A stretch of 64,000 nucleotides of DNA. Origin: Candidatus Woesearchaeota archaeon. Its GTDB lineage: Archaea > Nanobdellota > Nanobdellia > Woesearchaeales > GW2011-AR4. The position numbers and the translations under genes are program-made. The notes beneath the pieces were generated by a model. It was given only the letters and a program-made list of their open reading frames with translations, had not been told where the DNA came from and made no database searches. Below, one piece after another: positions 21,692 through 46,150 of the stretch. Position 1 is the first letter of the stretch. The number at the start of each line of letters is the position of its first letter. Location of the stretch: contig JACOZN010000012.1 in the NCBI GenBank assembly GCA_016181305.1, forward strand, positions 965 through 64,964, given 5' to 3'.

Positions 21692-21692
21692 T

Positions 21693-24600
21693 TTATGTTT
21701 TGCAGCACACAACGCTGGATGTAGCCTGTTCTTCTATAGCCCCTAAGCACGGGAAGCCTGCAGTCACAAACTGCTTTGAAGTACATGATGTGATATCTTT
21801 GCATGAGCCATATCCATTATCCTTGTCGCCGCACAGCACCTCAAATTTTGTATTAAATGTATCCTGCCCTGCCCGGCTTTTGCTTGTGGCAGTAACCTTT
21901 CCCTGGTATTCTCCGGCAATGCTAAACTCGCTTGTCTGGATTGTGCCTTCAAACACATTCTGCACGGTGGTGGGATTAAAAGTTGCAGTCTTTTCGATTG
22001 AATCAGGACTTGTGTAATAAAATATTATGTCTTTCACGTCACTTGGATTTTTCATTGTTGTGGATATTTTAACAGCTTCTATCTGGTCTTTGCTTACCTG
22101 GGAAGGCTCGACTTTTGCGTCTTTTATAAGAGCGCCCTGCAAGCCGACTCCCTGCGGCCTTTTTGTCTCAATCCTTATAGGTATTATTTTCTGCTGCGGC
22201 TTGTCTGGGTAAAGCACAGGGTCGTTAAAGGAGCATTCCTCAGGATTGCTGAATGAATCAACATTTTGCTTTAAGTGGTACAAAGCAAGCACTAAATTTC
22301 TCGGCGTTGATTGCGGAGTTGCTGCTGTTGTCTGCCTCACTGGCCTTACCTCCAGAGTTCCGCCTACAACGCCGACAGGCTTGTCTGCTCCCTGCGGCTT
22401 TTCCTTCCGCAATGCTGTCCTGCCGTCAGCTGCAAGCTGCAGATTCGCGCTTTTAATCTTCAGCTTAACCCCCTCTTTCTGGATTATAAATGCGCCTTCA
22501 TCCCTGTTTAAATATTCGGACTCTGATATTTTCTTAATGGCTGAGGGGTCTAAAACGCTTACGGAATCCTCGTCGCCGAAGAAGTTTATTGCGCCGTCAT
22601 TATTCATGTCGTAGAACTTAACAAAAACGCGCACTATCTGCTCATTGCTCAATTCCACCGGCTCGATATCCAGGCCCCTTTTGTCGCCAACAATCTGCTC
22701 TACCTGCAAGTCAGACGGCAGGCTTATTGTAACCCTGTACTGATGCGTGCCGTTTGATACTATGGGAACAATATCCTTTTCAACGCCGTCCAAAGTAGCC
22801 CTCAGGCATTTATCCTGCCCTATTTTGTTTACTGTGGCGTCTATGCCTATTGCACTGCCAACGCTGAAAACGAGCTCTTCTCTTTTGTTTATGTCAACGC
22901 CGTCTATCCTCACGTCAGTGAAATAGGCAATTCCCTTCCTGTTTGCAAATGTCGCTCCGTCGCCGCATATGAACGATCCTGACAATTCATCAAGCCTGCA
23001 GTCTAAAATGTCCCTTGCAGTCCTGTCTATCAACGGAAAGTAAAACACTCCGTCATCGTAGCCTTGAGGATAGCAGTTCGGCTTGATGTTTGCCTGTATC
23101 TTCCTGTCAGTCCTTAGCGTGAATTTCAGATGATCATACCTAACATTGTCGTCTATAACTCGCCTGCCTGAAGGAATTGCCTTTTCCTCAAGGACATTCT
23201 GCTTAAGCCTTCCATTAAACACCAATGGCCCTTTTCTTTCATCTGCAAGATTTATGCAGTCGCACTGGCTGTAGGCAGCTGACGTGCCCAAAGCGCCTGT
23301 ATAGGCAATTGAAGGCGCCCCCAATGCCCCGCAGTTTATCTGGTTGGGGTACAAGTCAAGCTGCTTTCTTCCAACGCATGCCAATTGAACATCATACCTC
23401 TCAAAGTCGCAGCCCGGGTTGATTATCCAGGACGCCCTGTACTCGTATTTTGGGGTAAACCTGACTGGATCAACAGTCAGAAATTCCCTGCTTCTTGTTA
23501 TCGGCTGCACCAATGTTGCAAATGGAGTTGCGTATGCGGCATCAACAATGTTTTTCACATTGATTTCCCAGTCATAGCCGAAAGCCCCAAGGCATATTTT
23601 TCTTGCAACGCTTTCCTCTCCTGTGCCGAGGATTTCGTTAAGCTTCGCATTTCCATACTCGTTTCTTAGCTGCTGCTGCAAGTCAGTAATGCCTTCATGA
23701 ATTCCCTTGAATCCTGACTTTACATATTCTATTATGCTGTCGCTCTGCGCATTGACGTCTGTGCCAGACTCTTGCGGAGTGCAGCCGTCTACAAACCACC
23801 TTATAACCTGCCATATCGCGCTGCACAGGTATTGCGTGAACAATTCCTTGCACGCCCCTGAGTCTCCCCTTCCTGTTGTTCTCACTTGTATTAAGCACGT
23901 TGACATTGATGTCATAAGATTCTTGATGAACTGTATCCTGTTGCTTATCCCTGCAAGGTGCACGCATTGCACCGCAGCCCAGTGGTCCTTGAAAGGGTCA
24001 ACTGCCATCACAGTCTCGGGCTTGAACGGCTCGTAAATCCAGTGGTTCTGCCCGAAGCATGCAGGCAGGTCTCTTCCCTCAATGTATCTTTTCGGGTTGT
24101 ATTCATTATGCACAACAGACGTGTCATCCACATCTCTTGCCTCAAACTTTTCCTTGAAATACCTGTAGCTCCATTTCATCTGTTCAAAATCAGTTGAGCC
24201 AAGCCCTTGTGTCTCCGCAGATGCGCTGGCTTTTTTTGGCTCATGGACTGGGCTTTGGGTTTCATACACTGCCTTGTCATCAGGGCTGTAGTAATTTGTT
24301 GTCAGTTTTGTTTCCTTTGCATTTATGCAGCAGCATTCCTCCCTTGTTGCAGTCAAGTCGCTTACTGCTTCGGCATTATTGCCTGTGTAGAAGCAGTCAT
24401 TTGTGTAGCCTGCTGTAAGCGCAGATTGGATGGAGTATATACTGCCATTAATTGCCGAAATTTGCTTATTTTGGTTGAATGACCTGCAAGTGTCGACTTT
24501 TGTGCACGCATACCCAATTTTATTTGATGATTTTGATTTTGGGTCTGGCTCTATTTGAATTGGGGTTCCTCCAAGATTTACTTTATTCTTTTTTTGCTGG

Positions 24601-27600
24601 TCTTGCGGCTTTACCCCGCAAATCTCTGCACAGCTCTTTTGCTGGGCGGTTATATAATGGAATTCATCTTTTTTGACTGCATAACTTATTGTAATTTCAG
24701 ATGGGCCAGTCAAGCGCTCTAATTCATATAGGTTGCCAGTAGATTGTTTTCCCAGCCTGAAAAGCGCTTTCTTTCCTCCTTTTTCCACCTTAAAGCACTT
24801 ATCATCAATGTTGTATATTTCTTTATTTAGCTGAAACGAAGCTGCCACATCCCTGCATTTCTCTGGATTTAAAGGCAGCCCTCTTACGCTCTGGTCAACT
24901 CCGCACCCTTCAATGCTTGTAACTTTATTGTATAAATCCGTATCATCCTTCTTCTCAGTCCATTTTGCAGGGGCTGCATGCCCGAACACCCTGTCGCAGC
25001 TCCACCTGAACCAGTTGTATGCGCTCGCCTCTGACTCCCATGCGCCTGCAGACGCAGGGAAGCACTTTCTCAGGTCAGCGTCAGTGACATATTTCATCTG
25101 GAAGCTGCCTTTCTTCTCGGCAATGTCCTCCATCATCCTCTGGCAGTCATCCTTGTCGCCTTTGTTGGCAGGCTTCAAAGGCTTTTTCTCAAAAAGCTCG
25201 AAAATCTCCGAGGCTCCCAGCCCCCTTTTCAGAATCAAAAACGGCTTTTCCTCCCAGAAAGCAATCCATCTCCTGTAAATGCCAAGAACCAGGTTCAATC
25301 CGAATGATGCAATGCAGCCGACTGCTGCAAAATCAAGCAGCTTGTCAATCTGCTCCTGCACTGAAGTCAAAGTCTTTATGGAGCTCTGCAAAAAATTTAC
25401 AAAGTCAAAAAGCAGCCAGTCAGGCAAAAATTTCCTGGGATCTATTATGGTGCTGTCAACAACATAGCTTACCTGCTCGCAAGTTGTCTGCGTTTCTGTC
25501 TCCAGAACACCGTCATTGTCCATGTCGTGCTGGTATGTTATTTTCACCTTCACAGGGAATGTGAGTTCCTTGTTGATAGCCTTCAGGAAGCTTTTCCAGT
25601 CCTTTTCCAAAAATGAGTCCATGCCCGGGAATCTTGAAAGCGTCATAGCCGAGTAAGAAACCGTGTTGTCAGGCGGGTTGAGCAGCTTCGGGCTATTGCT
25701 TGAAGGCATAATCTGGCAGCTTATATTGAACCTCGGGTCAAGCAGCTCCCTTGTGCTGCACGCCTTTGATAATAAGACTCCTTTTATCTTTGGATTTATG
25801 CCTCTTCCTATGTAAGAGTAATTAAAGATAAAGTAAATGGTTTCTGTGCCTTCTGCCATCCTTTCAGTGCTGAGGAATGGCGGGCTCTGGTAATTGGCAA
25901 GGGGAATCACGTCCCAGCTTTGGTTGCCGCTCCAGCATGTGCCAATCCTGACGCTTCTTGTCGCAAAGCCCCTCTGCCCCGTGGCGTCAGTTGCAATCAC
26001 AACAAGCGTTGTTGTTTTTGAATCCTTGGCTTCCTCAAGGCTTGTGTCCCTGAAATCCGAGACAGGCACCTCCCTGAGGCGGGCAGCGCCGCCGAAAATT
26101 GCAGTCAAATCCACATTCTCAAACTTGAAATTCCCGCTGCTGTCCGATGTTGTCGAGAAATCAGCCCCTGTGCTGCATAAAGATTTTGAAGCGACATTGA
26201 ACCTGCATTTTGCATCAAGCTGGGGCTCTGCAATATTTTGGACTTCATTAGCCAATCCGCTTAATTCAAAAGTGGCGTTGAAGCTGCTGAAAGGGGTCCT
26301 GTCAACAAACAGATGAACTCTGGCATTCGGCTTTGTTGTCCCAATAACGTTAACTTCGTTGGCTGCATTCTCGAAAAGCAGGGCGCCGCTTGGGGGGCTT
26401 GTTATCTTTACATCAGGCTTCTTTGTATCAAGCACAACATTCCTTTCAAAAACAACGCTGTTTTCAGCCCTGTCTTCGAATACAAGCTTTATGAAATAAT
26501 TTCCATCGCCTTTGTTCAGCCTTATTCCAAAATTAAAGACTCCGCTGCCGTTGAGCACGAGGACAGGTTTTCTGAAGTCCTCAAGTATGTCGACTTCAGG
26601 ATATTTGAGGTTCAATATCGCTCCCCCTTTCAGGGTGGTTGCTGCAACAGGCCCTGATTTCGGCCCTTCGTTTGCAAAGTTATTGACTGCTGAAACCTCG
26701 TATGTGTAGGTTTTCCCGCTGTCAACCAAGGCATCTATGAACAGGTTAAAATTTGCCGGCTTTGTCAGCGCAATCGGGCTCGAATCCTCCCTATAAACAA
26801 CATAATGGCTGAAATCCTTGTCTTTGGACTCGTCCCAGTGCAGCTCGACAAAATTCTGCCCTATCCTGGTGGCATTCAGCCCTGCAATCCTTGAGGGCAC
26901 TGCAGTGTCGTTGGCTTTTGCGTCGACAAAAACCTTTATCAGCGCCTGCTCGTTCACAAAGCCGCTTATTGTAAGATTCTGTTTTGATGTGAGGGACGGA
27001 ATGTCGTCAAGCTGCACAACAGGCTTTTCAGTGTCGACACTAACCTCGAATATTTTCTGGTTTCTGTTGCCTGACTTGTCAGCAACTGTTATCTTTACAA
27101 TATTGTCATTGTTCAGCTGAATCTGGCTGAAGACAAACCTGCCTGAGCTTCCGACTTCGTTCCCGCTGAGGCTTCTTTTTGGGATTCCCATGTCATTGAC
27201 GAACAGGCTTACGGACGAGAAAGGCTCTGTGGAGCCGACTATGTCAATCACCCTCCTGTTTACAAACCTGGGGATTGAGGCATTGATGAAAGGAGGGGTT
27301 ATGTCCCTTCCCGCAGTGAAGTTCCGGCCTGAGGAGTTTGCGCAGTTGCCTGATGCGTCGCACGACTTGACAATGAAAATGTATCTTGTATTTTTTACAA
27401 GCCCGTCTATCACAATTGAATGGTTGGTTACAAGCTGGGTTGAGCTTTTGATTTTGTCGGTCCTGTTGGTGCCGTAAAGCACTATCGTTGTTGCATTCTC
27501 GTCAGTCAGCCATGTTGCCCTTGCAGTTGTATCAGCCACAGGAAGTATGTCTACGCTTGTTATTGCAGGAGCAGAAGAATCAACTGCGCCTGTCGAGGCT

Positions 27601-28232
27601 GCCAAGGTGTTTGACTGGGCGCCTTCATTGCCGCTGGCATCAACCGCAGAAACCCTGTAGCTAAAGGAGCTTTTTGCCTGCAATCCCGTGTCATTAAATG
27701 TGTTTGCCGTTGAATTGCCCACAACTGCAAAATTCCTGTAAATCAAATAGTGGCTCAGGTCTGGGATATTCATGCTGTTCCATGAAATAGATATCGAATC
27801 CTGTGTTGAAGACAATGCGCTCAGGCCAGTGACTTGCGGAGGAGGCGTTATGTCTGCTGTCCTGAAAGTGTAAAAGCTGTTTGAGTTGTTGTCTGTTGCT
27901 GAGCTGCCCGCCAAGTTCATGGACTCAACTGCAAAAAAGTATGTTGTATCGCTCTCAATCCCGCTTATTACCGTCACCGTGTGGTTATTGACGAAGTTGT
28001 CATGGACTTGCTTGAATCCCAGGGCCGATGTCTTGCCGTAATGCACTTTTCCGTCTGCCATCTCGTCTGTAGTCCACTCGATTGTTGCGGAGTTTGAGGT
28101 TACCTTTGTAGCCCTTGCATTGGATATTGTAAGTCCATAAACATTTGCAGTGTAGAAAGGCAGCGTCAGAACCAGCTGTATCATGAGCACGGTCATCAAT
28201 TCAGTTATTTTTAACTTGGCTTTTGAATTCAT
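21693..28232 (-). CDS. giant secreted Cys-rich surface protein (2179 aa), FN3/Ig-like N-terminal repeats
   Basis: Uninterrupted 6.5 kb ORF. The signal peptide ends LVLTLPFYTANVYG. At least 4 FN3-like units are present (ATIEWTTDE..., ISISWNS...YLIYRN, ARATWLTDE..., VELHWDES...YVVYRE). There is one internal hydrophobic segment and many Cys in the C-terminal ~1300 aa. Confidence 0.85.
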   Translation of the reverse strand: MNSKAKLKITELMTVLMIQLVLTLPFYTANVYGLTISNARATKVTSNSATIEWTTDEMADGKVHYGKTSALGFKQVHDNFVNNHTVTVISGIESDTTYFFAVESMNLAGSSATDNNSNSFYTFRTADITPPPQVTGLSALSSTQDSISISWNSMNIPDLSHYLIYRNFAVVGNSTANTFNDTGLQAKSSFSYRVSAVDASGNEGAQSNTLAASTGAVDSSAPAITSVDILPVADTTARATWLTDENATTIVLYGTNRTDKIKSSTQLVTNHSIVIDGLVKNTRYIFIVKSCDASGNCANSSGRNFTAGRDITPPFINASIPRFVNRRVIDIVGSTEPFSSVSLFVNDMGIPKRSLSGNEVGSSGRFVFSQIQLNNDNIVKITVADKSGNRNQKIFEVSVDTEKPVVQLDDIPSLTSKQNLTISGFVNEQALIKVFVDAKANDTAVPSRIAGLNATRIGQNFVELHWDESKDKDFSHYVVYREDSSPIALTKPANFNLFIDALVDSGKTYTYEVSAVNNFANEGPKSGPVAATTLKGGAILNLKYPEVDILEDFRKPVLVLNGSGVFNFGIRLNKGDGNYFIKLVFEDRAENSVVFERNVVLDTKKPDVKITSPPSGALLFENAANEVNVIGTTKPNARVHLFVDRTPFSSFNATFELSGLANEVQNIAEPQLDAKCRFNVASKSLCSTGADFSTTSDSSGNFKFENVDLTAIFGGAARLREVPVSDFRDTSLEEAKDSKTTTLVVIATDATGQRGFATRSVRIGTCWSGNQSWDVIPLANYQSPPFLSTERMAEGTETIYFIFNYSYIGRGINPKIKGVLLSKACSTRELLDPRFNISCQIMPSSNSPKLLNPPDNTVSYSAMTLSRFPGMDSFLEKDWKSFLKAINKELTFPVKVKITYQHDMDNDGVLETETQTTCEQVSYVVDSTIIDPRKFLPDWLLFDFVNFLQSSIKTLTSVQEQIDKLLDFAAVGCIASFGLNLVLGIYRRWIAFWEEKPFLILKRGLGASEIFELFEKKPLKPANKGDKDDCQRMMEDIAEKKGSFQMKYVTDADLRKCFPASAGAWESEASAYNWFRWSCDRVFGHAAPAKWTEKKDDTDLYNKVTSIEGCGVDQSVRGLPLNPEKCRDVAASFQLNKEIYNIDDKCFKVEKGGKKALFRLGKQSTGNLYELERLTGPSEITISYAVKKDEFHYITAQQKSCAEICGVKPQDQQKKNKVNLGGTPIQIEPDPKSKSSNKIGYACTKVDTCRSFNQNKQISAINGSIYSIQSALTAGYTNDCFYTGNNAEAVSDLTATREECCCINAKETKLTTNYYSPDDKAVYETQSPVHEPKKASASAETQGLGSTDFEQMKWSYRYFKEKFEARDVDDTSVVHNEYNPKRYIEGRDLPACFGQNHWIYEPFKPETVMAVDPFKDHWAAVQCVHLAGISNRIQFIKNLMTSMSTCLIQVRTTGRGDSGACKELFTQYLCSAIWQVIRWFVDGCTPQESGTDVNAQSDSIIEYVKSGFKGIHEGITDLQQQLRNEYGNAKLNEILGTGEESVARKICLGAFGYDWEINVKNIVDAAYATPFATLVQPITRSREFLTVDPVRFTPKYEYRASWIINPGCDFERYDVQLACVGRKQLDLYPNQINCGALGAPSIAYTGALGTSAAYSQCDCINLADERKGPLVFNGRLKQNVLEEKAIPSGRRVIDDNVRYDHLKFTLRTDRKIQANIKPNCYPQGYDDGVFYFPLIDRTARDILDCRLDELSGSFICGDGATFANRKGIAYFTDVRIDGVDINKREELVFSVGSAIGIDATVNKIGQDKCLRATLDGVEKDIVPIVSNGTHQYRVTISLPSDLQVEQIVGDKRGLDIEPVELSNEQIVRVFVKFYDMNNDGAINFFGDEDSVSVLDPSAIKKISESEYLNRDEGAFIIQKEGVKLKIKSANLQLAADGRTALRKEKPQGADKPVGVVGGTLEVRPVRQTTAATPQSTPRNLVLALYHLKQNVDSFSNPEECSFNDPVLYPDKPQQKIIPIRIETKRPQGVGLQGALIKDAKVEPSQVSKDQIEAVKISTTMKNPSDVKDIIFYYTSPDSIEKTATFNPTTVQNVFEGTIQTSEFSIAGEYQGKVTATSKSRAGQDTFNTKFEVLCGDKDNGYGSCKDITSCTSKQFVTAGFPCLGAIEEQATSSVVCCKT

Positions 28233-28249
28233 TTTATTGCTTATTTATC

Positions 28250-30178
28250 TCATTTTAATTCAGGGGCGGGGACATTTTTTGAGTACGAGCTGAGCCCGGA
28301 AACAAACAAAAGCATCTCATCCTCTGATGCAGGCCCCTGCTCCACCACATGGAACACGATTTCATTTGCATTTAACAATGCGCTTTTGCTTGCCTTCAGC
28401 TCGCCGATGTAGCCTGCTACAATACTTTCTTCGTCTGTGACATAAATTTCCACGTCATAAGACGCGTCCCTGTCCGCAATCTTGAGCGGGAATTGCGACT
28501 CCTGCGGGTAGGCTGCAAAGCTCTCGAATCCAAAGTCCTTTCCTTTTATTGATATAGAGGCTTTTTCATTCGGAGCCAGGCTGCTTGAAACAGATGGATT
28601 TGAAAGCAGGTGCTTCACAACCATGTAGTTATTGAATTCTTTTACTGGGTTGAGCGCCAGCACATACGAGCGCCCGTCAACATCAGTCTGTATAAAGGAT
28701 GCAGCATCGCCAAAGCCTCCCTTTTCGCCCTTTATGACGCCGTAGACGCAGTACGGGAACAATCTTGTTATGCCTGCTGCAGCTCCGAGGCTGAGCCAGT
28801 CGCTCTGCCCCATGCCGCAATAATAGCGCCCGCATACAAAGGTCAAATTCACGCCTTTTATGTCATCTCCCGTCGAATTGTCGACGGTAAAAATCGTCAC
28901 CTCATTCTGCACATTGCTGCAGTAGTCATCCTGGCTTAAGTCCGGGGGAATATCAAACAATGTCGCGCCTGACTTAAGCCTGTTGGGCTGGTTGTGGTCA
29001 ATGGAAGCCCTGAATGCAAAGCTGAACTGGTAAGGCTTGTTTGACTCAGTCTCCTGGTCAAAGATTGAGGCAACAACAGGGAAATTTATGTCGTATGTGA
29101 AATGCCATATCTGTAGGCAGAAGAACGAAAGCTTGTCAGTCCCTTTTTGCGCATTGCTCCTCAAAATGCCGTTTTCGCTGGGCCTCGCGTAAATACTCAT
29201 TGGCCAGCCTTCATAGGCAAACGAGACTTTCATATTGCTGTATTTTCCCGGGTCTTTGTCTATCTCCCATATGTAATGCTGCTGGAAATAAGTGTCTGAG
29301 TAGACACTCCTGCCGGCAGGGTTCGGAACATACAAATTTGGGTTGTAGTCTGTGCCCTTTACCCTTATGTAAGGCAGGTTGATCCTCAGCAAATTCTTTA
29401 ATTTCTCTTTTATGCTGCTAAGCTGCCATGTCTTCGGGCTGCAGCCCGCCTCTACATCTGTGGTAGGAATGTCCACGTCCATGGACATCAGGTCTATTGC
29501 CTTTCTCTCTATAAAATAATCCTTGTTCTCCCTTTCCATAATCAGCTTTGCAGCCTCGTACACTTTCTTAAATCTTATTGGAAGCGTGTAGCCAAACCTT
29601 TCAAGAAGCGCCTTGAAATTGCCTTCCTTTCCAATGACCTCCACATGGTAATCCAGCTCTACAGAGACATCATTCTCGTTGAACTTCACTGCGGCAACCG
29701 GCTTTTTCAATTCGTTTATCTCGAATCTTCCGCTGAACGGCTCGAAATCACTGATGCAGCTTTTCAATTCCGACTCTATGTGGCTTGCGAGCTGCTGGTT
29801 TATGAATTCCTCTGTCGGGACAGCCTCAATGCCGTCATGCCACCAGTACGGCATTTTGAAGCCTCCGGCGGGAAATGCCGCCAGATACGCCCTTTGGTCG
29901 CTTTTTATACTTTCAGGCACGCTTATGTAGCCGCCGCCCAGCCCTATTCTTTCCAGGCCGTCCTGCGCAACACTTTTTATGCAGTCTTCTATATAGACTT
30001 TCACGGGAAGCGCCTCGGGCTGCACAACTTCCACAATATCCCGGAATATCTGCCTCTGGTAAAGAAAATAAACAACCCCTGAAAGCAGGATTACCATGGC
30101 TATTATTATGAAAATTGCCGCCTGTGATTTTGAACTGCGGATTAATGCAGTGAATTTACCTCTTTTTTTTATGCTCAT
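28250..30178 (-). CDS. KxQ-anchor / GGY-domain family protein (642 aa), paralog 1
   Basis: N-terminus is ...RSSKSQAAIFIIIAMVILLSGVVYFLY, then CIKSVAQDGLERIGLGGGY, LKSCISDFEPF, VSVELDYHVEV, LPIRFKKVYEAA. These motifs are shared with 3 other ORFs. Confidence 0.8.
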   Translation of the reverse strand: MSIKKRGKFTALIRSSKSQAAIFIIIAMVILLSGVVYFLYQRQIFRDIVEVVQPEALPVKVYIEDCIKSVAQDGLERIGLGGGYISVPESIKSDQRAYLAAFPAGGFKMPYWWHDGIEAVPTEEFINQQLASHIESELKSCISDFEPFSGRFEINELKKPVAAVKFNENDVSVELDYHVEVIGKEGNFKALLERFGYTLPIRFKKVYEAAKLIMERENKDYFIERKAIDLMSMDVDIPTTDVEAGCSPKTWQLSSIKEKLKNLLRINLPYIRVKGTDYNPNLYVPNPAGRSVYSDTYFQQHYIWEIDKDPGKYSNMKVSFAYEGWPMSIYARPSENGILRSNAQKGTDKLSFFCLQIWHFTYDINFPVVASIFDQETESNKPYQFSFAFRASIDHNQPNRLKSGATLFDIPPDLSQDDYCSNVQNEVTIFTVDNSTGDDIKGVNLTFVCGRYYCGMGQSDWLSLGAAAGITRLFPYCVYGVIKGEKGGFGDAASFIQTDVDGRSYVLALNPVKEFNNYMVVKHLLSNPSVSSSLAPNEKASISIKGKDFGFESFAAYPQESQFPLKIADRDASYDVEIYVTDEESIVAGYIGELKASKSALLNANEIVFHVVEQGPASEDEMLLFVSGLSSYSKNVPAPELK

Positions 30179-30194
30179 TTTTACACCATATTTA

Positions 30195-30350: not shown

Positions 30351-30457
30351 TTCATATATGAAATATAGATATTTTATATATTTTTTATATATTTCTCAAT
30401 ATTAAAAAGGATAGATTTATATATAAATTATATATGAGATTTATAAATATTGCGGTT

Positions 30458-31216
30458 TTACAGCCTCTGGGCTTCCTCAGCCAGAGTGGAGGCGTAGTAC
30501 CTTGCAAAAGCTATGTACGCCAGCAGGATCAGCGCCTGAAAAACTTCCGAGTACCTGTATTTGGCTGAATTTGTTATCCTTGAAATTGCATAAAGCAGGG
30601 AGAGCATCGCAGCGTAAGGCAGAAGAAAAAGATGAATCTTCGCGAAATTAAGCTTGACCGCCTCGATTATCGACTTCAAATTCCGCCTCTTCATGAAAAT
30701 CGTGTACAGCGTGTTGGTGAGGTAAAGCGCCAATATTGCAATTATAACTACAAACACCTGGACAGCCGCGGGCTCCACAAGCCAAAAAATTGCAGAAACC
30801 AGCAGAAGCCAAAACCCCATCCAGGCCAAGTTCAAGCCGAGAAACCTTGAGATCAGCGCAAGGCTTATTCTTGTTTTTGTAGTTTTTGCCCATATGATTC
30901 CCTTGAGGATGCTTGCGGTGAATATTATGGCAACCATTAGGAGTATGGCTGAAAAAATAATGAGGTAATAGAACTGGGACAGCAGCTGGTAAGCTTTGTC
31001 ATAGCCGATGGCAGCCAAATCAGAAGGAGACTGCAGCGGTATTGAGTAGCCTTTTTCTTTTATCCTCTGCAGCCAGAATAGGATGAAATAGCCTGACAGG
31101 AAATAGAACAGCGCATCAAGTATTATTACCAGTATAATTTCCAGGCCGATTTTTTTGACCGATGAAACAAGGACATTGGTGTTCCATTCAAGAAAATCCG
31201 CTTTTTTATTCTTCAT
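30458..31216 (-). CDS. polytopic membrane protein, terminal gene of island module B
   Basis: 252 aa, about 6 TM segments. It starts 5 nt after the 1455-aa gene and parallels the 20864..21691 product. Confidence 0.7.
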   Translation of the reverse strand: MKNKKADFLEWNTNVLVSSVKKIGLEIILVIILDALFYFLSGYFILFWLQRIKEKGYSIPLQSPSDLAAIGYDKAYQLLSQFYYLIIFSAILLMVAIIFTASILKGIIWAKTTKTRISLALISRFLGLNLAWMGFWLLLVSAIFWLVEPAAVQVFVVIIAILALYLTNTLYTIFMKRRNLKSIIEAVKLNFAKIHLFLLPYAAMLSLLYAISRITNSAKYRYSEVFQALILLAYIAFARYYASTLAEEAQRL

Positions 31217-31221
31217 TTTGG

Positions 31222-34200
31222 CTAAAAGTCATTTATGTCGCTGCTGCCGCCTGTTCCGGTAGATGTTGTGGCAGTTGCTGTTGTGCCTGAAATCGGTGTT
31301 GGCTCTCCTGAAGACTCGACTATTGTGTTGCACAATTCCTTGTCCTCGAGCTTCCATCTCAGCGGTATCTCGTCAAACACTATGCAGACTTGGGTGTACA
31401 AAAACGCGCTTTCCTGAACTATTGCATTTCTGCCCATCCTGCCGAAAGTCGAGCCTCTTTTTATTTCCACATCGCTCTTGAAAACATTCACTCTCCTCTC
31501 GCCTTTCAGGAGAACATTGACGTTCATCTCCTCAGGCGCCCTTGGGTCCTTGTCATAGTCGCCGTTCCTGATATTGAATGTTATCATGTAAATGAATTCC
31601 TGCCCGGTACCTGTTTCGATTGCCTCTGTCCTTCTGGCTTCGATATGCGCTCCTATCTGCGCCAAGCCTTGCGGAGTTTCTGCAAAGGCAACTCCCTCGT
31701 CTTCGCCGTCAATATACTGGCTGCAGATTGCGCTGCTCCAGTACTCTGTTCCCAGGTACAGGGTAGCAAATGCCCTGTCAATCTTGTCGCGCCACTGCAT
31801 CAGGGAATCCTCGTCGAAGAACAATGTTGCATAGTATCCCAGGCCCCTGAATTCTGTAAATATTCTTTCCACTTCTGCAAAGAAGCGCTGCGAGTTCAGC
31901 TGCTTTAATGTGAAGCCCTCCTTGCCTTTTTTGCCGTGAACCATCTGGTTGTCGGCTGCTGTTTGCATCAAAGCCAAAATCTCAGAGTCTGCATCTACAA
32001 ATTTTTTCTTCCCCTCTGAATCCAGGTAGTATAAAGTTGGACCGGATAGCAAACCACTTCCTTCAAAGATGCATTCATCCACTGGACATATAGCAGTGAA
32101 AACTTTAATCTTGCCATAGTTAGTGTCAGTAGGATCAAAGCCAAAGGTTTTGTCTATTTCCATGTAACCGCGCGGGGTATCAATTTTTATTCTGTCCTTA
32201 TCGCTATAATCAAATTCGTATTTTTGGCCATCTTTCACAAATTTAACCTCCTGAAGTTCCCCTTTGCTGTTGAATGTTCTTGAAGTAGCGCCTTCTCCAA
32301 GCGTAGGAACACCATCTTCGAGCTTAACACTACCTTCATAAACTTTTTCTATGCCATCTTTAGTTACCTCTCTTTTTACCAAGTCTTTCTGCATTGTCAA
32401 AATATTTTCGCCTTCGAAATTCAGATGCAATCCGCTTTTGTCGCCTATAACGCCTTGCTGGGTTTTGGTTAAATCAACGCCTGCCTTCACAGCCTCAGTT
32501 AATATCTGGTTGCGCCTGTTTTCGTCAGTTACAAGATTTGGGTTTGTGCTTTGCAACTCACTAAATGATTTTCCGCTGAGTTGTGTGGTTTTGCCGTCAA
32601 CAGTGACTTTTACTTCAGCCTTGTCTGTGAGCTGTGCTTGCTTTGGCTCGTATTTTACCTCTATCCTTGAGCCGTCTGCAAGGGTTGTTGTTTCTATCTT
32701 CTGGAATTTCTCCGGATTTAGGGGGTTGTCTGTTATTGTGGTTTTTGTCCGCCTGTCTTCAAATATTTCTGTTCTTGTTTCCTTAATTAAAGACTTGTCT
32801 TTTCCGTATTTTCTGTCTGTAGCAATTTCTGTAGCGCCATCTTTTACAATAACCCTTTGGTCTCCGCCAGGCGCTGTAACTGTTATTGCTCCAGTTTGGG
32901 CATTGTAACTAAATCCCTTCTTGAAGTCAACGCCTTTTAATAATGAAGCATCCGTTGTTATTTCCACGCCGCCATAAACAATCTTCTGTTTGCCTTCAAC
33001 AGGGTTGAAAATTTCAAGCTCATACTGCTTATTGTCTCTTCCTAAAACCAGAATTTTTTCTTTGACAGCAGGCGAAACTGTTCTAGCAGGCGCTGAAACT
33101 GAGAGTATATCAGGCGGTGCGCCCTCCTTTATTTCTTTTGTTGTGCTTCTGACATCTTCTTCGCCCTGAACCAAAACTCTGCCATATTCAACCCTGACAC
33201 AGCTTATTGTTGGCGGGCATTTTCCAACTGGATATTTTTCGAGAGTTTGTGGGTTCACGTCCCTTGCTTTTTGGTCGTCCTCTTGATTAATATAAGTTTG
33301 TTTAGCCAAAGGCTGCGGTTGTTGTATTTGGCGTGGAGCAGGAGAAGGTGCTGAACGCTGTTCCACTAGTGCAGTGGATGCATACTTTTCCAAAAGTACA
33401 AGCTGCCCATTTGGCTCTACCCTGTAAACTTCACTTTCAGTAGTAATATAGTATTTATTATCGGCATCTTTGTAATTAAAACCGACAATATTGCCACTTT
33501 CTTCATCAATTACCGGGCTGGCTTTTAACTCACGATTTCCTGAGAGTATGTAATATTCCCCTCCTTTTTTAATTGCAGGGCCTATTGTTGCTTGTAGTTG
33601 GGTTTCAGTCGCTGGCGTTTCTGGAATTGTTGTAGACTTTTCTTCAATTATATTTACAGTCGCTCTTGATAAGCCATCTGTTAGTCTTACTTCTATTTTT
33701 TTACCCTTATACTTCTCCAATTCTCCCCCTTCTAATGCTCCAACAACCTGATTATTATTGTTGACAATAGTTCCATCTTCTCTTACATTGTATTCTCCCA
33801 ATGTTGTATCTGGATTGTCAGCGAAATCTTGTATTCTTTGATATTTCGGCTTTTCTTGCGAATCTGGTTTACTTGCATCAGCTGGCGCTTGTGCTTCTTG
33901 TATTAAACGAAGAGCTTCACTATGAATTTCATTATATTCATCGGGAGAAACAGTTTCATCAGGATAACAAAGATCGCAGCCCCCCAGTGTTCTAACCCTC
34001 ATTAATTTCAAATTCTCTATGCTGTCTCCGTCAAGATAATACTCCTCTGAGCCTATTTGTATATATTCATTTTTCTGTGCAATCTCAAGAAGCTCAGTAT
34101 CGTATTGCTCTTGGGTTTTTCCCTGTGTTGATACATCAAAAATTTTTCCTAATGGGTTTTCAATGACTTGTGATTCTACAACGCTCTTGATTTCAACATC

Positions 34201-35589
34201 ATAGCTATATGAACCCCTTGGATCTCCTTGTACATTTTTTACAAGAAATTCTTTACTTTGACTTCTGAAAACTTCACCTTCAAGAGGTATGACAAAAATA
34301 CCTTTGGGTACGCCAGTTTCATAAAATCCATAAGCCTCGTCATAATAATACCCTCTTAATCCTGATAAAGTTCCGTAGAAATCCTCTGGTGGTGGATTGT
34401 AAAGTCTGAATGTGTGAACTTCACCATCTTTATCGGTAAATGTTAAAGTTTCCGGAGCTTCCCTTATATCAACTATACCCAATTTTCTGTAGTTTAGGCT
34501 ATTTGACTTTCCAATTTCGGTATTAAGTTTTTCTGGCTCTTGAGTTGCTGAAATTTGTGATATGCTTGCACCAAAATCTTCATTTTGCTGGTAGTCTGTA
34601 TTTTTTCCCAAGTAGCTAAGGTAAACACCTTTGTCGACATTTATGCCGTCTATTATTCCGTACCAATCATCAACTTTTGGATCAAATTTTCCATCACCAT
34701 CAATATCTACCCAGTCTATATAACCCCTGCCTTCAAATTCCCTCCTATATTGGACAGTTTTTATTGTTCCTTGTTGCTGTGTTTCCGAAATCGTACTAAT
34801 CCCCGGAAAACTTGAGCTTTTTTTGATACCCTGGAGATATTCCTGATATGCTTCCTGTGCTTCTTCATTTTCAGGAGGGGCTCCGATTTCAGTCAGTTGC
34901 TGAGCTACATCCTCTAGCTCGGGATTGACAAAAGAAAGCTTATGCACGTCCTTGGCAGGGTACTCCTTTTTGCCGAATAGGCCATAGAATGTAACCTTCC
35001 ATTCTTTTGCGTTATTATCCCAAATGAATATTGCTTTGTCATATAAAAATGGGTCACGCACTTCAGAACGGAAGTAATAGGCTTGATTTTTTGTGGCTCT
35101 TTGCAGTGACTCTGATTTCTTGTCGCTTAAAATCTGGAATCCTGTTATGCGGGCAAGTTTTGAAATTATTGTTATTTCTTCTTCCACAAACTCCCCTTCA
35201 TCCGCAACCTCGCTTTCAGGCAGCCCTGTGAAAGTCTTGTCAAGCCTTGCTGTCCCGTCTGCTTCAACAATCAACAGCCCATTCTGTTCCTCCGGGTTCC
35301 TTACTTTTATGTACAATGAAACATAAGAGTTGAAGCTGTCGAGGTAATACACATAGCCGTTGATTATCTGGTACCATCCCTCGTTTAAATGGCTTAGCTC
35401 ATTCACATTTCTGACTTCAATGGTTTTCAGCCCAAACCCATTTTCGCTTATTGCAGTTTCCTTAGCAACATTGGCTGTTATATTATTTTCATAAACAATA
35501 GATGTTGCCAGTACAAGAGACAAAATTATAATTATGGTTGTGAATACAAGCAGCGCTTCTGCCATTTTACCTGGGATTTTTTGCTTCAT
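31222..35589 (-). CDS. giant anchored/secreted protein (1455 aa)
   Basis: Uninterrupted 4.4 kb ORF with an N-terminal signal anchor (ALLVFTTIIIILSLVLATSIVY). The C-terminal ~250 aa resemble part of the 2179-aa protein. The tail is Thr/Gly-rich. Confidence 0.85.
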   Translation of the reverse strand: MKQKIPGKMAEALLVFTTIIIILSLVLATSIVYENNITANVAKETAISENGFGLKTIEVRNVNELSHLNEGWYQIINGYVYYLDSFNSYVSLYIKVRNPEEQNGLLIVEADGTARLDKTFTGLPESEVADEGEFVEEEITIISKLARITGFQILSDKKSESLQRATKNQAYYFRSEVRDPFLYDKAIFIWDNNAKEWKVTFYGLFGKKEYPAKDVHKLSFVNPELEDVAQQLTEIGAPPENEEAQEAYQEYLQGIKKSSSFPGISTISETQQQGTIKTVQYRREFEGRGYIDWVDIDGDGKFDPKVDDWYGIIDGINVDKGVYLSYLGKNTDYQQNEDFGASISQISATQEPEKLNTEIGKSNSLNYRKLGIVDIREAPETLTFTDKDGEVHTFRLYNPPPEDFYGTLSGLRGYYYDEAYGFYETGVPKGIFVIPLEGEVFRSQSKEFLVKNVQGDPRGSYSYDVEIKSVVESQVIENPLGKIFDVSTQGKTQEQYDTELLEIAQKNEYIQIGSEEYYLDGDSIENLKLMRVRTLGGCDLCYPDETVSPDEYNEIHSEALRLIQEAQAPADASKPDSQEKPKYQRIQDFADNPDTTLGEYNVREDGTIVNNNNQVVGALEGGELEKYKGKKIEVRLTDGLSRATVNIIEEKSTTIPETPATETQLQATIGPAIKKGGEYYILSGNRELKASPVIDEESGNIVGFNYKDADNKYYITTESEVYRVEPNGQLVLLEKYASTALVEQRSAPSPAPRQIQQPQPLAKQTYINQEDDQKARDVNPQTLEKYPVGKCPPTISCVRVEYGRVLVQGEEDVRSTTKEIKEGAPPDILSVSAPARTVSPAVKEKILVLGRDNKQYELEIFNPVEGKQKIVYGGVEITTDASLLKGVDFKKGFSYNAQTGAITVTAPGGDQRVIVKDGATEIATDRKYGKDKSLIKETRTEIFEDRRTKTTITDNPLNPEKFQKIETTTLADGSRIEVKYEPKQAQLTDKAEVKVTVDGKTTQLSGKSFSELQSTNPNLVTDENRRNQILTEAVKAGVDLTKTQQGVIGDKSGLHLNFEGENILTMQKDLVKREVTKDGIEKVYEGSVKLEDGVPTLGEGATSRTFNSKGELQEVKFVKDGQKYEFDYSDKDRIKIDTPRGYMEIDKTFGFDPTDTNYGKIKVFTAICPVDECIFEGSGLLSGPTLYYLDSEGKKKFVDADSEILALMQTAADNQMVHGKKGKEGFTLKQLNSQRFFAEVERIFTEFRGLGYYATLFFDEDSLMQWRDKIDRAFATLYLGTEYWSSAICSQYIDGEDEGVAFAETPQGLAQIGAHIEARRTEAIETGTGQEFIYMITFNIRNGDYDKDPRAPEEMNVNVLLKGERRVNVFKSDVEIKRGSTFGRMGRNAIVQESAFLYTQVCIVFDEIPLRWKLEDKELCNTIVESSGEPTPISGTTATATTSTGTGGSSDINDF

Positions 35590-38500
35590 TTTTTTGTTTT
35601 AACCGGCGTAAAGCCAGAATCTCCTGTTGTCTTTTTTGGCTTTGACTTGTCCTTCAAGTCCAATCTCGAGCAATAATCTTCCCTTACCTTAAATCCTTCA
35701 TCTATAATATTTTTCACATTGCCTATGACTTCCCCTGTTTTCGCCAATAGCCTCCAGCCTTCGCATGCTGTGAATACTGCAGTAGAGGTTGGCGCCGGTG
35801 CAGGGCAAGTCGTCTTGCACAGCAATGCAACTCCGACTCCCAAGGCTGAAAAGGGGTTTGACAAGGCGTCCTTTATTATTCCGGTAAAGTGGTCGAACAC
35901 GGCAGTGTAGGGAATCAGTGCAAAAAGCTCTCCGTAAACATACTTGCAGGTTGAAAATGCTTTCAGGTCCTCGCATGCGGTCACTGGCAGCCCATCCTGC
36001 GCAACAGCGTTTTCCAAACAATCAGCATACAGGCATTTAATCTGCCTGTACTTGTCCAATCCGTAAATTATTCCGGGAATGCACGCAAACAAAGTAGCAA
36101 CTATGAGGTTTCTCTGCGGGTTCATGTATTCTGCAAAGCCTCCTTTGATTTGGTCGCCCACTTTAACCTGCCCTCCAAGAGAATACTTTCCTTCCCCTCC
36201 AGAAACATATTCAGGACTTGGTGTAGGCAGGTATTTTGCTCCGGGCAGGCTGTTAATCATGCCCTTTACGTTATTCTGCCAATATCCTAAAACCCATGGC
36301 GCCCATTGGCAGTTGACAAACTTGCAAGCCTTGACTCCAAAGTCTATGAAGGCATTTTGTGCAGCTTCTTCCCCGGCTTGCTGCGCCCCGCATTGGGCTG
36401 TCTTGGCGTTATAAGCTGCAGTACAAACCGGAATTCCTATTATAGGCAGTCCCCCTTTATAACAATTGTCAGTGAAAATTCCAAGAAGTACTGTTATGGT
36501 GTACATCACAGTAATAATATTGTACAGCGTAGCAAACAATTGGCATATCTTTTTTGCAATGGTGAAAAACTTGTTAAGGCTGGAGATAGCCTTGAAAATG
36601 CCCTCTGCATCATCCTTTGCGTCTTTTATCTTGCGCTGGATTTCGCTGCTTACCTCCCCTAATGGAAGATTTGAAAACAGGAGATTTATCTTTGCAGTTT
36701 CTATCTCCGGGTTTCGTGTTATGTCTGTACCGCTTCCAATCTTCGAGAATATGTTGAAAGAGCAGCTTAGGCTTGCATTGCTGAGCTTGAAGTCATCTTT
36801 CTTCAACGTTATCTTTATGACAGGCGACGTGCTTCCTGGCTCTGTGTTGAAAGTGTCAACGCTGTCCACGATTGATGTGTCGCCTGAGCAGCTTGCAGAC
36901 CCAATGAAAACAGTCGAGACAGCCTTTGTTGCTGATTTCTGGCTTAAGTCAACTTCGCAGAAAACCCTTTGGTTTATCAGCGGACCAAGCTGCCTGTCAA
37001 TTGTTTCAGGAGAGCACTCGGCTTCGCTCGTCCAGAAATTAGGCACAGTGGCGTTTTCCAGGCCATAAGTCTTCAATGACTTTGTAACAATAAGCGTGTT
37101 GCCTGCATTGTCGCTGAAGTTGAACGTTATGAAATCAGAGGCTTCAAGGTTTATGGGGTCAGTAAGCCATATGCATATGTTCTCGTCTGCCTGTATCTTT
37201 TCGCATTCTCCCTTGGCATCCGAGGCATCGCTTATGAAGCTGGAAAAGTCGGCTGATACAAAAACATCGTTGTCTTCTGTGACATTTGCAACTACAGCAA
37301 TCTTGTCGCCTATCTTGAAAAAGCCTGCAAATGCCTGGGCTAAGCCGCCTACATTGGTTATGTTCATGCTCTTCAACTGAGGGGCATCCTGGTCAAGCTT
37401 TACCTCAAGCTGCGTCTCTTCAGCAACTGAGTTTCCAAGCAAATCCGTTGTGTCAGAGCCTATGGAAATTGTGGAAACTGGCCTGAACCTGACATCTTCC
37501 CAGATGCATGTCCATCCTGACTCCTGAATGCAATTTGACGCTTTGAGCTTGGCTCCGTCAACAACAAGTATTGCGTCTTCCGGGCTCAAGCCCGTTGAGT
37601 CGTCGAAAACAGCTGTTACAACATTGCCTGATGCTTTGCCTATCAGCTGCCCGTCTGCCAAAGTGGACGTTGACAAGAGCTGCAAAACAGGCCCTTCCTC
37701 GTCCAAAGAAAGAAGCTTTGTAATTGTGACGCTTCCTTTGTTTCCTGACTTGTCAGAAGCATTGATTATGATATTCTTGAAGCCGCCAGTGCCTGGCTTG
37801 AGCTCAACAGCCCATGCGCATGCGCTTGTGCCGCCTTGCAGTGTGCACGATGCCTTTGCATTTTTTAAGGCTTGGCTGGGGTTTAATGCTGACAAATCAG
37901 CTGTTACTGAACTCAGGCTTAAGTCATCCCCAGATATATTGACAGCCACAACTGCGTCCGAGCCAACAGAGGAATAGGTGCTAATTGCTATGTCTTTTAC
38001 AAAAATGCCAAAAGTGCCGGGCAATGCCAAAGGAGGAGTGTTGTCTATTGTAAATGTTGCCGATGCATCGTCTGAAACCTGGCTGAATTTGTCGGTTGCC
38101 TTTGCAAACACAGAATTCAGGCCGTCGTCAAATACGCCGGAGTTAATGGATATGTTGGAGCTGTAAATGCACTCGCTTGAAGAAATGTCAACCTTTTGGC
38201 TGAGCGAGCTGTCCAGCGTGAAAAACTCTATGCTTTTTATTCCTGCGCACTTGCCGCCGCAGGACGGCTCGTCGCATGCAAAGTCCGCAATGCTGTAAGT
38301 GATGTTAATGTTCTGTCCTGAGGAAAACTTGCTCTTTGGAATGGTTAGCTTAACTTCAGGCGGCTTGTTGTCTATAGCCAATGAGCTTTGCTTTGAGTCG
38401 TCAAGAGTTTTGTCGTCCCTGTAAAGGTTTATTGTGACAGGGAATGATGTTGCATCAAATAATTCTGTGCCGCTGCTTGGGTATCTCAGCGTGCACAAAA

Positions 38501-38774
38501 AGCTTCCATTGGACAATGCATCGCACTTGTCAAACTGAATTCCTGGATCTGCCCCTACAACAATCTGCTCCGGAGTTATCGTGTCTCCGGCAATTGAAGC
38601 CTGCGCTTCCAAGTTGATGAAGTCCTCTTCGCGCGCAAATCCCTGGATATTGTCGCTTCCCTTCACAGACACTGTGCCTATGCCTGCATAGGCGCTTGTA
38701 GTGTAAAAAGGAATTGTCAGCACTAAGACTATCAGGAACGATGCAACAAACTGCATGTATTTTTCATTGCTCAT
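35586..38774 (-). CDS. giant secreted Cys-rich protein (1062 aa)
   Basis: The signal peptide ends LVLTIPFYTTSAYA, the same motif as the 2179-aa protein. It has Ig-like repeats, then hydrophobic segments and a Cys-rich C-terminal region (ACEDLKAFSTC). ATGA overlaps occur at both ends. Confidence 0.85.
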   Translation of the reverse strand: MSNEKYMQFVASFLIVLVLTIPFYTTSAYAGIGTVSVKGSDNIQGFAREEDFINLEAQASIAGDTITPEQIVVGADPGIQFDKCDALSNGSFLCTLRYPSSGTELFDATSFPVTINLYRDDKTLDDSKQSSLAIDNKPPEVKLTIPKSKFSSGQNINITYSIADFACDEPSCGGKCAGIKSIEFFTLDSSLSQKVDISSSECIYSSNISINSGVFDDGLNSVFAKATDKFSQVSDDASATFTIDNTPPLALPGTFGIFVKDIAISTYSSVGSDAVVAVNISGDDLSLSSVTADLSALNPSQALKNAKASCTLQGGTSACAWAVELKPGTGGFKNIIINASDKSGNKGSVTITKLLSLDEEGPVLQLLSTSTLADGQLIGKASGNVVTAVFDDSTGLSPEDAILVVDGAKLKASNCIQESGWTCIWEDVRFRPVSTISIGSDTTDLLGNSVAEETQLEVKLDQDAPQLKSMNITNVGGLAQAFAGFFKIGDKIAVVANVTEDNDVFVSADFSSFISDASDAKGECEKIQADENICIWLTDPINLEASDFITFNFSDNAGNTLIVTKSLKTYGLENATVPNFWTSEAECSPETIDRQLGPLINQRVFCEVDLSQKSATKAVSTVFIGSASCSGDTSIVDSVDTFNTEPGSTSPVIKITLKKDDFKLSNASLSCSFNIFSKIGSGTDITRNPEIETAKINLLFSNLPLGEVSSEIQRKIKDAKDDAEGIFKAISSLNKFFTIAKKICQLFATLYNIITVMYTITVLLGIFTDNCYKGGLPIIGIPVCTAAYNAKTAQCGAQQAGEEAAQNAFIDFGVKACKFVNCQWAPWVLGYWQNNVKGMINSLPGAKYLPTPSPEYVSGGEGKYSLGGQVKVGDQIKGGFAEYMNPQRNLIVATLFACIPGIIYGLDKYRQIKCLYADCLENAVAQDGLPVTACEDLKAFSTCKYVYGELFALIPYTAVFDHFTGIIKDALSNPFSALGVGVALLCKTTCPAPAPTSTAVFTACEGWRLLAKTGEVIGNVKNIIDEGFKVREDYCSRLDLKDKSKPKKTTGDSGFTPVKTKK

Positions 38775-46149: not shown

Positions 46150-46150
46150 C

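What the first reader, a model, noticed from the sequence alone, without database searches (positions are those of the whole stretch)
21693..38774. The 2179-aa protein looks like a fusion counterpart of the adjacent 1062-aa and 1455-aa pair
The 2179-aa and 1062-aa proteins share an unusual signal-peptide end: LVLTLPFYTANVYG versus LVLTIPFYTTSAYA. Further in, 2179 has GACKELFTQYLC where 1062 has TACEDLKAFSTC, with the same A-C-x2-L-x5-C spacing, in both cases after a hydrophobic segment. Downstream of that, 2179 reads CLGAFGYDWE...ATLVQPITRSREF...YEYRASWIINPGCDFERYDVQL. This parallels the 1455-aa C-terminal region LGTEYWSSAIC...AQIGAHIEARRTE...FIYMITFNIRNGDYDKD...MNVNVLL. The 1062 and 1455 genes overlap by ATGA. 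This fits a gene fission or fusion event between the duplicated modules and implies that the two products act together. The alignment was done by eye and is tentative.
Basis: inference. Interest (0 to 1): 0.6.

Follow-up and report, generated by a model that had tools for sequence, protein, structure and literature searches.

The report
Split and unsplit giant surface-protein paralogues
In a tiny uncultivated Woesearchaeota archaeon, the 2179-aa secreted giant is the unsplit sister of the neighbouring 1062-aa and 1455-aa proteins, which are the two halves of a duplicated giant that broke into two genes.

Summary
The window carries two tandem modules of an undescribed Woesearchaeota surface-protein operon: 707-1062-1455-252 and 642-2179-282.

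The flanking genes are clear paralogues. 642 matches 707 at E 6e-46, and 252 matches 282 at hhalign probability 99.9.

Pairwise BLASTP and phmmer see nothing between 2179 and 1062 or 1455, but profiles do:
- An A-family profile built from 2179[1395-1640] hits 1062-family proteins at E 9e-7. The iteration then merges both families over a Cys-bearing predicted helical hairpin (2179 1402-1481, 1062 876-962).
- The conserved C-terminal domain of 1455 aligns with 2179 1538-1741 (hhalign P 2e-3 to 2e-4). The predicted strand order matches.
- Related orders have one module with one giant. The stretch after its hairpin matches both 2179 (P 3.8e-6) and 1455 (P 4.5e-6).
- Single-ORF 1062+1455 fusions exist in relatives.

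So the ancestor was one giant. The module duplicated in this order, and one copy split, most likely by fission. That the two products reassemble, and that the function is cell contact, are both inferences.

The parts
38771..40894 (-). 707-aa D1 protein: pilin-like N-terminus (KSQ + hydrophobic helix) and a ~600-aa ectodomain. It heads module 1.
   Evidence: (E 6e-46 to the 642-aa protein).
35586..38774 (-). 1062-aa B protein: the N-terminal half of the split module-1 giant.
   Evidence: (homologues in 123 of 151 genomes of the order).
38685..38774 (-). B signal peptide ending LVLTIPFYTTSAYA (aa 1-30).
   Evidence: The motif is shared with the A family.
36789..37145 (-). B pre-helix domain (aa 544-662), collinear with 2179 aa 738-870.
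   Evidence: hhalign P 2.3e-4 over 115 columns.
36483..36539 (-). B hydrophobic Cys-bearing helix (aa 746-764). Not a conserved membrane span.
   Evidence: Only ~44% of family members reach a membrane-span hydrophobicity score.
35889..36149 (-). B hairpin motif (aa 876-962; C..PGI..L.KYRQI.C...CL...G...C......C), containing TACEDLKAFSTC.
35586..35589 (-). ATGA stop/start overlap of the 1062 and 1455 genes.
31222..35589 (-). 1455-aa C protein: N-terminal anchor, ~1200-aa lineage-variable region, then the conserved C-terminal domain.
   Evidence: Only aa ~1200-1450 are conserved across the order.
35485..35589 (-). C N-terminal signal anchor or pilin-like leader (aa 1-35).
31294..31902 (-). C-domain (aa 1230-1432): helices followed by a beta sandwich. 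Counterpart of 2179 aa ~1510-1741.
30458..31216 (-). 252-aa M1 polytopic membrane protein. It closes module 1.
28250..30178 (-). 642-aa D2 protein, paralogue of the 707-aa protein. It heads module 2.
21693..28232 (-). 2179-aa A protein: the unsplit giant of module 2.
   Evidence: (homologues in 109 of 151 genomes of the order).
28134..28232 (-). A signal peptide ending LVLTLPFYTANVYG (aa 1-33).
26013..28133 (-). A ectodomain with fn3 and Ig-like repeats (aa 34-740).
   Evidence: (PF00041 E 1.4e-15).
25623..26021 (-). A pre-helix domain (aa 738-870).
25272..25340 (-). A hydrophobic Cys-bearing helix (aa 965-987).
24030..25271 (-). Cys-rich insert (aa 988-1401) that 1062 lacks. Outgroup giants have a comparable ~500-aa spacer.
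23790..24029 (-). A hairpin motif (aa 1402-1481), containing GACKELFTQYLC. Predicted as two long helices.
23010..23705 (-). A region homologous to the 1455 C-domain (aa 1510-1741), with a Cys-rich loop inserted in the beta sandwich.
20864..21712 (-). 282-aa M2 polytopic membrane protein, paralogue of the 252-aa protein. It closes module 2.

Best explanation
The region holds two anciently duplicated modules of one Woesearchaeota surface-protein operon. Each module is a pilin-like D protein, a giant secreted G protein and a polytopic membrane M protein.

In module 2 the giant is intact (2179 aa). In module 1 the giant has been cut into two translationally coupled genes:
- 1062 keeps the signal peptide, the Ig-like arrays, the pre-helix domain and the Cys-bearing helical hairpin.
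- 1455 keeps the beta-sandwich domain that follows the hairpin in an unsplit giant. It sits behind a newly acquired N-terminal membrane anchor and a long variable region.

Shown here: the homology of each segment, the collinearity, the existence of single-ORF 1062+1455 forms, and the single-module, single-giant state in sister orders.

Inferred:
- The split was a fission.
- The 1062 tail and the 1455 C-domain dock outside the cell to rebuild the hairpin-plus-sandwich unit. This would tether the anchor-less 1062 protein to the membrane through 1455.
- Both modules display variable adhesive or lytic ectodomains for contact with other cells.
For: - Paralogy of the flanks: 642 against 707 gives E 6e-46. 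252 against 282 gives hhalign probability 99.9.
- Conserved gene order D-B-C-M-D-A-M in six other genomes of the order.
- A-B homology: a jackhmmer round-2 A-family profile hits B-family proteins at E 9e-7 and 1.6e-6. All sub-threshold hits are B family, and the search converges reciprocally on 170 A plus 170 B sequences (alignment). Pre-helix domains align at P 2.3e-4. The signal-peptide motif is shared.
None of 200 permutations reaches the real score. AF2 secondary structure agrees in 65% of paired columns, against 42% mean and 53% maximum for slid controls.
- Outgroup: a profile of the post-hairpin region matches A at P 3.8e-6 and C at P 4.5e-6, while controls give 0.41-0.82.
- Fused B+C ORFs were confirmed in five genomes by HMM hits to both domains. 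Nine B-family ORFs carry a fused-length tail. About 15 genomes of the order have the C-domain at the end of a 1240-1660-aa ORF.
- Outgroup orders have one motif copy per genome (36 of 36 matching genomes). All 18 re-searched copies lie in a giant of 1142-2980 aa, and the 10 fetched loci show a D-G-M arrangement.
- ATGA coupling of 1062 and 1455.
Against: - Direct pairwise comparison of the window's own proteins is not significant.
- jackhmmer does not bridge A-downstream and C.
- One hhalign run with a larger but less diverse alignment gave only P 0.065 (A-B) and 0.15 (A-C).
- The A-core model is poor in the helical part (pLDDT 30-60). The two models could not be superposed.
- Foldseek gives no significant fold assignment for either model.
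- On the B-family tree the fused forms need 4 changes (at least 2 forced), so fission or refusion happened more than once.
- No experiment or co-fold shows that 1062 and 1455 bind.
- The functional reading rests on domain content of relatives.
Confidence: 0.8

Rival explanations
1. Fusion, not fission. The ancestor had separate B-like and C-like genes. The 2179 family, the outgroup giants and the scattered B+C ORFs are secondary fusions.
For: Fused B+C forms are not one clade on the B tree: 4 changes, and one fused form is sister to a split form at 100/94 support. Fusion by loss of a stop at an ATGA junction is mechanically easy.
Against: All 18 outgroup genomes re-searched have one giant ORF carrying the motif. 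In the 10 fetched loci that ORF also carries the post-motif domain. The A paralogue is unsplit at this junction in nearly all genomes examined; G022 is split, but at a different point. Fused B+C linkers lack the anchor helix that split C proteins carry. Together these would require many independent fusions.
Confidence: 0.1
2. Only 1062 is a true paralogue of 2179. The resemblance of the 1455 C-domain to 2179 is a generic beta-sandwich similarity or chance, and 1455 is an unrelated pilin-like accessory protein.
For: jackhmmer never links them. Direct hhalign P values are modest (0.15 to 1.8e-4). Both models hit only generic Ig-like or ApaG-type sandwiches, weakly.
Against: The outgroup profile matches both at P about 4e-6 in one register, with clean controls. 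The C HMM hits an outgroup giant just after its motif (E 5e-5). The permutation null is never reached. Strand-by-strand secondary structure agrees. B+C fusions place the C-domain exactly where A has the matching region.
Confidence: 0.07
3. The split is an assembly or annotation artefact, or a pseudogenising frameshift. Module 1 would really encode one giant in this genome.
For: Several B homologues in other genomes show in-frame stops.
Against: The split form with a short tail is found in 167 of 176 sampled B-family sequences. The downstream gene has its own conserved K-rich leader and anchor helix. The ATGA junction is a clean stop/start overlap.
Confidence: 0.02

Closest known systems
Large extracellular SLT-domain proteins of Woesearchaeota and Pacearchaeota (fam00969, module 98; Castelle et al. 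2021, PMC8204110)
   Same: Same lineage, same size class, secreted. Relatives of both 1455 and 2179 carry PF01464 (SLT), PF02557 (M15 peptidase), PF01510 or PF01471 in their variable parts. Proposed role: attachment to or attack on other cells' walls.
   Different: The paper describes one protein family by its lytic domain. It does not describe the two-module operon, the hairpin-plus-sandwich core or the split/unsplit relationship. The window's own 2179 and 1455 carry no lytic domain.
Modular type IV pilins, minor-pilin tip complexes and archaeal class III signal-peptide proteins (for example the EppA or PibD substrates)
   Same: The D proteins (642, 707) and probably 1455 start with a short basic leader, K-[SG]-Q or KG, and a hydrophobic helix, followed by a large globular part. 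A T2SSE ATPase and T2SSF platform are encoded elsewhere in the genome, near another D paralogue.
   Different: No ATPase, platform or prepilin peptidase lies in the cluster. No Peptidase_A24 match was found in the 78%-complete genome. The ectodomains match no pilin family. The giants have ordinary signal peptides, not pilin leaders.
Gene fission and Rosetta-stone pairs (split genes whose products reassemble; the fused form in other genomes predicts interaction)
   Same: Adjacent, translationally coupled genes whose products together equal one polypeptide in paralogues and in other species.
   Different: The downstream half acquired its own export and anchor signal and a >1000-aa variable insert. 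It is therefore more than a simple cut, and reassembly would have to occur outside the cell.

Membership tests
Duplicated D-G-M surface-protein module of Woesearchaeota (undescribed in print; defined here and in earlier scan notes) | A pilin-like D gene directly upstream of the giant. | tested here: met
   707 lies before 1062 and 642 before 2179. The D HMM hits the same position in 6 ingroup clusters and in 9 of 10 fetched outgroup loci; the tenth is cut by the contig end.
Duplicated D-G-M surface-protein module of Woesearchaeota (undescribed in print; defined here and in earlier scan notes) | The giant carries the Cys-bearing helical hairpin motif. | tested here: met
   Both 2179 (E 3.3e-28) and 1062 (E 6.5e-32) match the motif model. 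159 of 201 genomes of the phylum sample match it.
Duplicated D-G-M surface-protein module of Woesearchaeota (undescribed in print; defined here and in earlier scan notes) | The hairpin is followed by the beta-sandwich domain, in the same or the next polypeptide. | tested here: met
   2179 aa 1510-1741 in cis; 1455 aa 1230-1432 in trans.
Duplicated D-G-M surface-protein module of Woesearchaeota (undescribed in print; defined here and in earlier scan notes) | A 5-6-helix M membrane protein closes the module. | tested here: met
   252 and 282, hhalign probability 99.9. The same arrangement is seen in 8 of 10 fetched outgroup loci.
Type IV pilin / archaeal class III signal-peptide proteins (D proteins and 1455) | Short basic leader, small residue at -1, then a ~20-aa hydrophobic helix at the extreme N-terminus. 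| tested here: met
   MKLNRKSQTTIFMIVGLVIILGG (707) and ...SSKSQAAIFIIIAMVILL (642). 1455-family N-termini read ..AKGLVSL.TIIVLL.
Type IV pilin / archaeal class III signal-peptide proteins (D proteins and 1455) | A prepilin peptidase (Peptidase_A24: PibD, FlaK or EppA) is present in the genome. | tested here: inconclusive
   No PF01478 match in the own genome, but the assembly is only 78% complete.
Type IV pilin / archaeal class III signal-peptide proteins (D proteins and 1455) | An assembly ATPase (T2SSE) and platform protein (T2SSF) are available. | tested here: met
   Both lie on contig C2 at 27930-30338, not in this cluster.
Type IV pilin / archaeal class III signal-peptide proteins (D proteins and 1455) | Leader cleavage and incorporation into a filament. 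| not testable with these tools
   Needs proteomics or imaging.
SLT-domain giant proteins of DPANN (Castelle 2021 fam00969) | A lytic transglycosylase (PF01464) domain in the protein. | tested here: not met
   No SLT domain in 2179, 1062 or 1455. Present in some 1455 and 2179 homologues and in a separate 547-aa protein at 44569-46212.
Integral membrane anchoring of the giants by the central hydrophobic helix | A conserved membrane-span-grade hydrophobic segment. | tested here: not met
   Only 44-49% of family members reach a Kyte-Doolittle score of 1.6. Fused B+C forms and many A members are clearly amphipathic there.

The most novel reading that the evidence does not exclude
The D-G-M module is the structural core of a so-far undescribed cell-surface organelle of the Nanoarchaeia, present once in several orders and twice in Woesearchaeales. 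The hairpin-plus-sandwich unit would be its docking joint. In module 1 the joint has been split so that a membrane-anchored piece (1455) captures a freely secreted adhesin (1062) outside the cell. That would be a natural split-protein tether, letting the cell exchange or release the adhesive or lytic head.
Probability: 0.25. Interest if true: 0.8.

Novelty: new variant of a known kind. Interest (0 to 1): 0.55.

Why it matters
The operon is conserved in most genomes of one of the most diverse DPANN lineages. None of its protein families matches a Pfam, NCBIfam or PDB entry beyond generic fn3/Ig repeats.

Showing that the fourth family (1455) is the severed tail of the giant reduces the system to three components: D, G and M. 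It defines the conserved core, a hairpin plus a sandwich. It dates the duplication to the base of, or within, this order. It also gives a concrete, testable protein-protein interaction: the 1062 tail with the 1455 C-domain.

That gives structural and biochemical work on how these uncultivated episymbionts present adhesins or wall-cutting enzymes a defined starting point.

Tried and rejected
- BLASTP and phmmer between the window's own proteins found no signal beyond the signal peptide.
- First hhalign runs with close homologues were suggestive only (P 0.005 and 0.022). They weakened with a larger but redundant alignment (P 0.065 and 0.15). I did not accept them until divergent and outgroup sequences were added.
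- jackhmmer from the 2179 downstream region, or from the 1455 C-domain, never crosses between the families.
- Pfam and NCBIfam give only fn3 for 2179 and nothing for the rest.
- Foldseek of both AF2 models against PDB, and of the C model against BFVD, gives no hit at E <= 0.001. There are only weak ApaG-type or Ig-like sandwich matches.
- I rejected the reading of the central hydrophobic helix as a transmembrane anchor, which would put the Cys-rich C-terminal half in the cytoplasm. The segment is not conserved as hydrophobic, and fused forms have no span between the B and C parts.
- The C-domain HMM finds nothing in outgroup genomes through the genome search. With filters off it hits one outgroup giant.
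- Literature searches found no description of the module.
- No rRNA, tRNA (by ARAGORN) or Rfam element lies in the window.
Full report
**What is there.** The window is contig C18 of a 1.07-Mb, 78%-complete genome. Database names of close homologues place it in the Woesearchaeota/Nanoarchaeota. Seven genes lie on the minus strand between 20864 and 40894: 707, 1062, 1455, 252, 642, 2179 and 282 aa. 707/1062 and 1062/1455 overlap by ATGA. Pfam and NCBIfam recognise only fn3 repeats at the N-terminus of 2179.

**The observation.** Direct pairwise tests do not support homology. BLASTP of 2179 against 1062 finds only the signal peptide (E 0.004). BLASTP of 2179 against 1455 finds nothing. phmmer within the genome finds nothing. 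The flanking genes are clear paralogues: 642 against 707 gives E 6e-46 over the full length, and the 252 and 282 families align at hhalign probability 99.9. The region is therefore two modules, D-B-C-M and D-A-M, where A is 2179, B is 1062 and C is 1455.

**Families and synteny.**
- A homologues occur in 109 of 151 sampled genomes of the order. The most conserved part is aa 1377-1814.
- B homologues occur in 123 of 151 genomes. The most conserved part is aa 877-1040.
- Of 1455, only the last ~220 aa are conserved (38 of 151 with the protein as query, 95 of 151 with a profile).
- The order D-B-C-M-D-A-M recurs in six other genomes that were fetched whole.

**A and B are homologous.** A profile of the A family, built from 2179 aa 1395-1640, hits B-family proteins in jackhmmer round 2 at E 9e-7, 1.6e-6 and 2.4e-5 in a database of 7011 sequences. 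That database includes all ORFs of the own genome. Every sub-threshold hit is a B-family member. The search converges on all 170 A and 170 B sequences, and the reverse search from 1062 aa 861-1062 does the same. Single family HMMs also cross-hit divergent members in both directions.

The shared segment is 2179 aa 1402-1481 and 1062 aa 876-962. Upstream, the pre-helix domains align at P 2.3e-4. The odd signal-peptide end, [LI]P[FL]Y..[VA]Y[AG], is typical of both families. On a tree of the motif region, A and B are separated by a 100/100 branch.

**A and C are homologous.**
- hhalign of the A downstream region against the C-domain gives P 0.0018 with all sequences, and P 1.8e-4 over 116 columns in one alignment with a more divergent A subset.
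- None of 200 column-permuted C alignments reaches the real score: 25.3 against a mean of 13.3, sd 2.6 and maximum 23.7.
- The AF2 models are of A aa 1385-1830 (pLDDT 62.6, beta part 80-92) and C aa 1190-1455 (pLDDT 76, beta part above 90). Both show helices followed by strands of matching length and order. DSSP states agree in 80 of 124 paired columns, against 42% mean and 53% maximum for slid controls.
- jackhmmer alone does not bridge the two, and Foldseek gives no significant fold assignment.

**The outgroup settles both homology and polarity.** Within the order, the motif model mostly finds two copies per genome, one in a ~1000-1200-aa ORF and one in a ~1700-2300-aa ORF. It finds exactly one copy in each of the 36 matching genomes from other orders of the class. 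In the 18 re-searched, the copy lies in a giant ORF of 1142-2980 aa. In the 10 fetched loci the arrangement is a single D-G-M module.

A profile of the region just after the motif in ten such giants matches the A downstream region at probability 87, P 3.8e-6 (2179 aa 1510-1626). It matches the C-domain at probability 87, P 4.5e-6 (1455 aa 1241-1407), through the same columns. Controls give P 0.51 (reversed C), 0.82 (M) and 0.41 (B upstream).

**Fused and split forms.** B-family proteins are bimodal. 167 have a tail of about 55-200 aa after the motif. Nine have tails of 545-742 aa, and five of these are confirmed to carry the C-domain in the same ORF. About 15 genomes of the order have the C-domain at the end of a 1240-1660-aa ORF. 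Fused linkers have no hydrophobic span. Split C proteins start with a conserved basic leader and anchor helix. Fused forms sit among deep, poorly resolved B branches and need at least two changes.

**Interpretation.** The ancestor of the class had one module with one giant. The module was duplicated in tandem in this order. In one copy the giant shortened and, in most lineages including this one, was cut between the hairpin and the sandwich. The downstream piece gained its own export and anchor signal and a long variable region. Relatives of both 1455 and 2179 carry SLT, M15, amidase or PG-binding domains in their variable parts. This fits the published idea that large Woesearchaeota proteins engage bacterial walls (PMC8204110).

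The central hydrophobic helix is not a conserved membrane span, so the giants are probably wholly extracellular. Docking of the 1062 tail onto the anchored 1455 C-domain would then tether 1062. This docking and the cell-contact role are inferences.

**Comparison with known systems.** The D proteins and 1455 have archaeal pilin-type N-termini. A T2SSE/T2SSF pair lies on another contig, about 6 kb from a small D paralogue. No Peptidase_A24 was found in the incomplete genome, and nothing in the cluster matches a described pilin or pilus family. Earlier notes of this scan describe the same two-module operon in other genomes. The new point here is that the extra fourth family is the severed C-terminal part of the giant.

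Noticed in passing
G000 contig C2:27930-30338 and C2:35837-36571 (outside the window): A T2SSE ATPase and two T2SSF platform genes lie about 6 kb from a small paralogue of the 642/707 family. This is a possible assembly motor for the pilin-like proteins of this cluster.
   Followed up: partly
window 35566-35589: The source annotation starts the 1455 gene 8 codons downstream (1447 aa, P0236), which would remove the ATGA overlap. Homologue N-termini (K-rich leader before the anchor helix) favour the longer start.
   Followed up: partly
homologues P0019, P0041, P0043, P0050, P0054 (2179 family); P0238, P0240, P0248, P0255, P0266, P0278, P0282, P0283 (1455 family): Relatives of both giants carry murein-directed domains (PF02557 M15/VanY, PF01464 SLT, PF01510 amidase_2, PF01471 PG_binding_1) in their variable parts. 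The window's own copies do not.
   Followed up: partly
G022:C1:44245-52200 (loci L107, L108): In one relative the A giant is itself in two ORFs of 1578 and 1066 aa. It is cut before the hairpin motif, at a different point from the B/C cut.
   Followed up: no
window 42734-46921: Further members of the D family (613 aa on the plus strand, 256 aa on the minus strand) flank a secreted SLT-domain protein (547 aa, 44569-46212). The island therefore extends beyond the two modules.
   Followed up: partly
B homologues in G110, G075, G135, G076, G068, G122: Several 1062-family genes in other genomes contain 1-4 in-frame stop codons (TGA, TAA or TAG) within otherwise full-length matches. These could be pseudogenes, assembly errors or recoding. 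I did not examine them.
   Followed up: no
window 22000-30000 and 36000-40000: The giant and D genes have higher G+C (0.46-0.47) than the flanks (0.40-0.42), while the 1455 variable region is lower (0.40-0.41).
   Followed up: no
G119:C7:77755-79956, G076:C41:16734-19835, G018:C1 (three motif copies): Some genomes of the order carry a third copy of the B-type giant, so module number varies beyond two.
   Followed up: no
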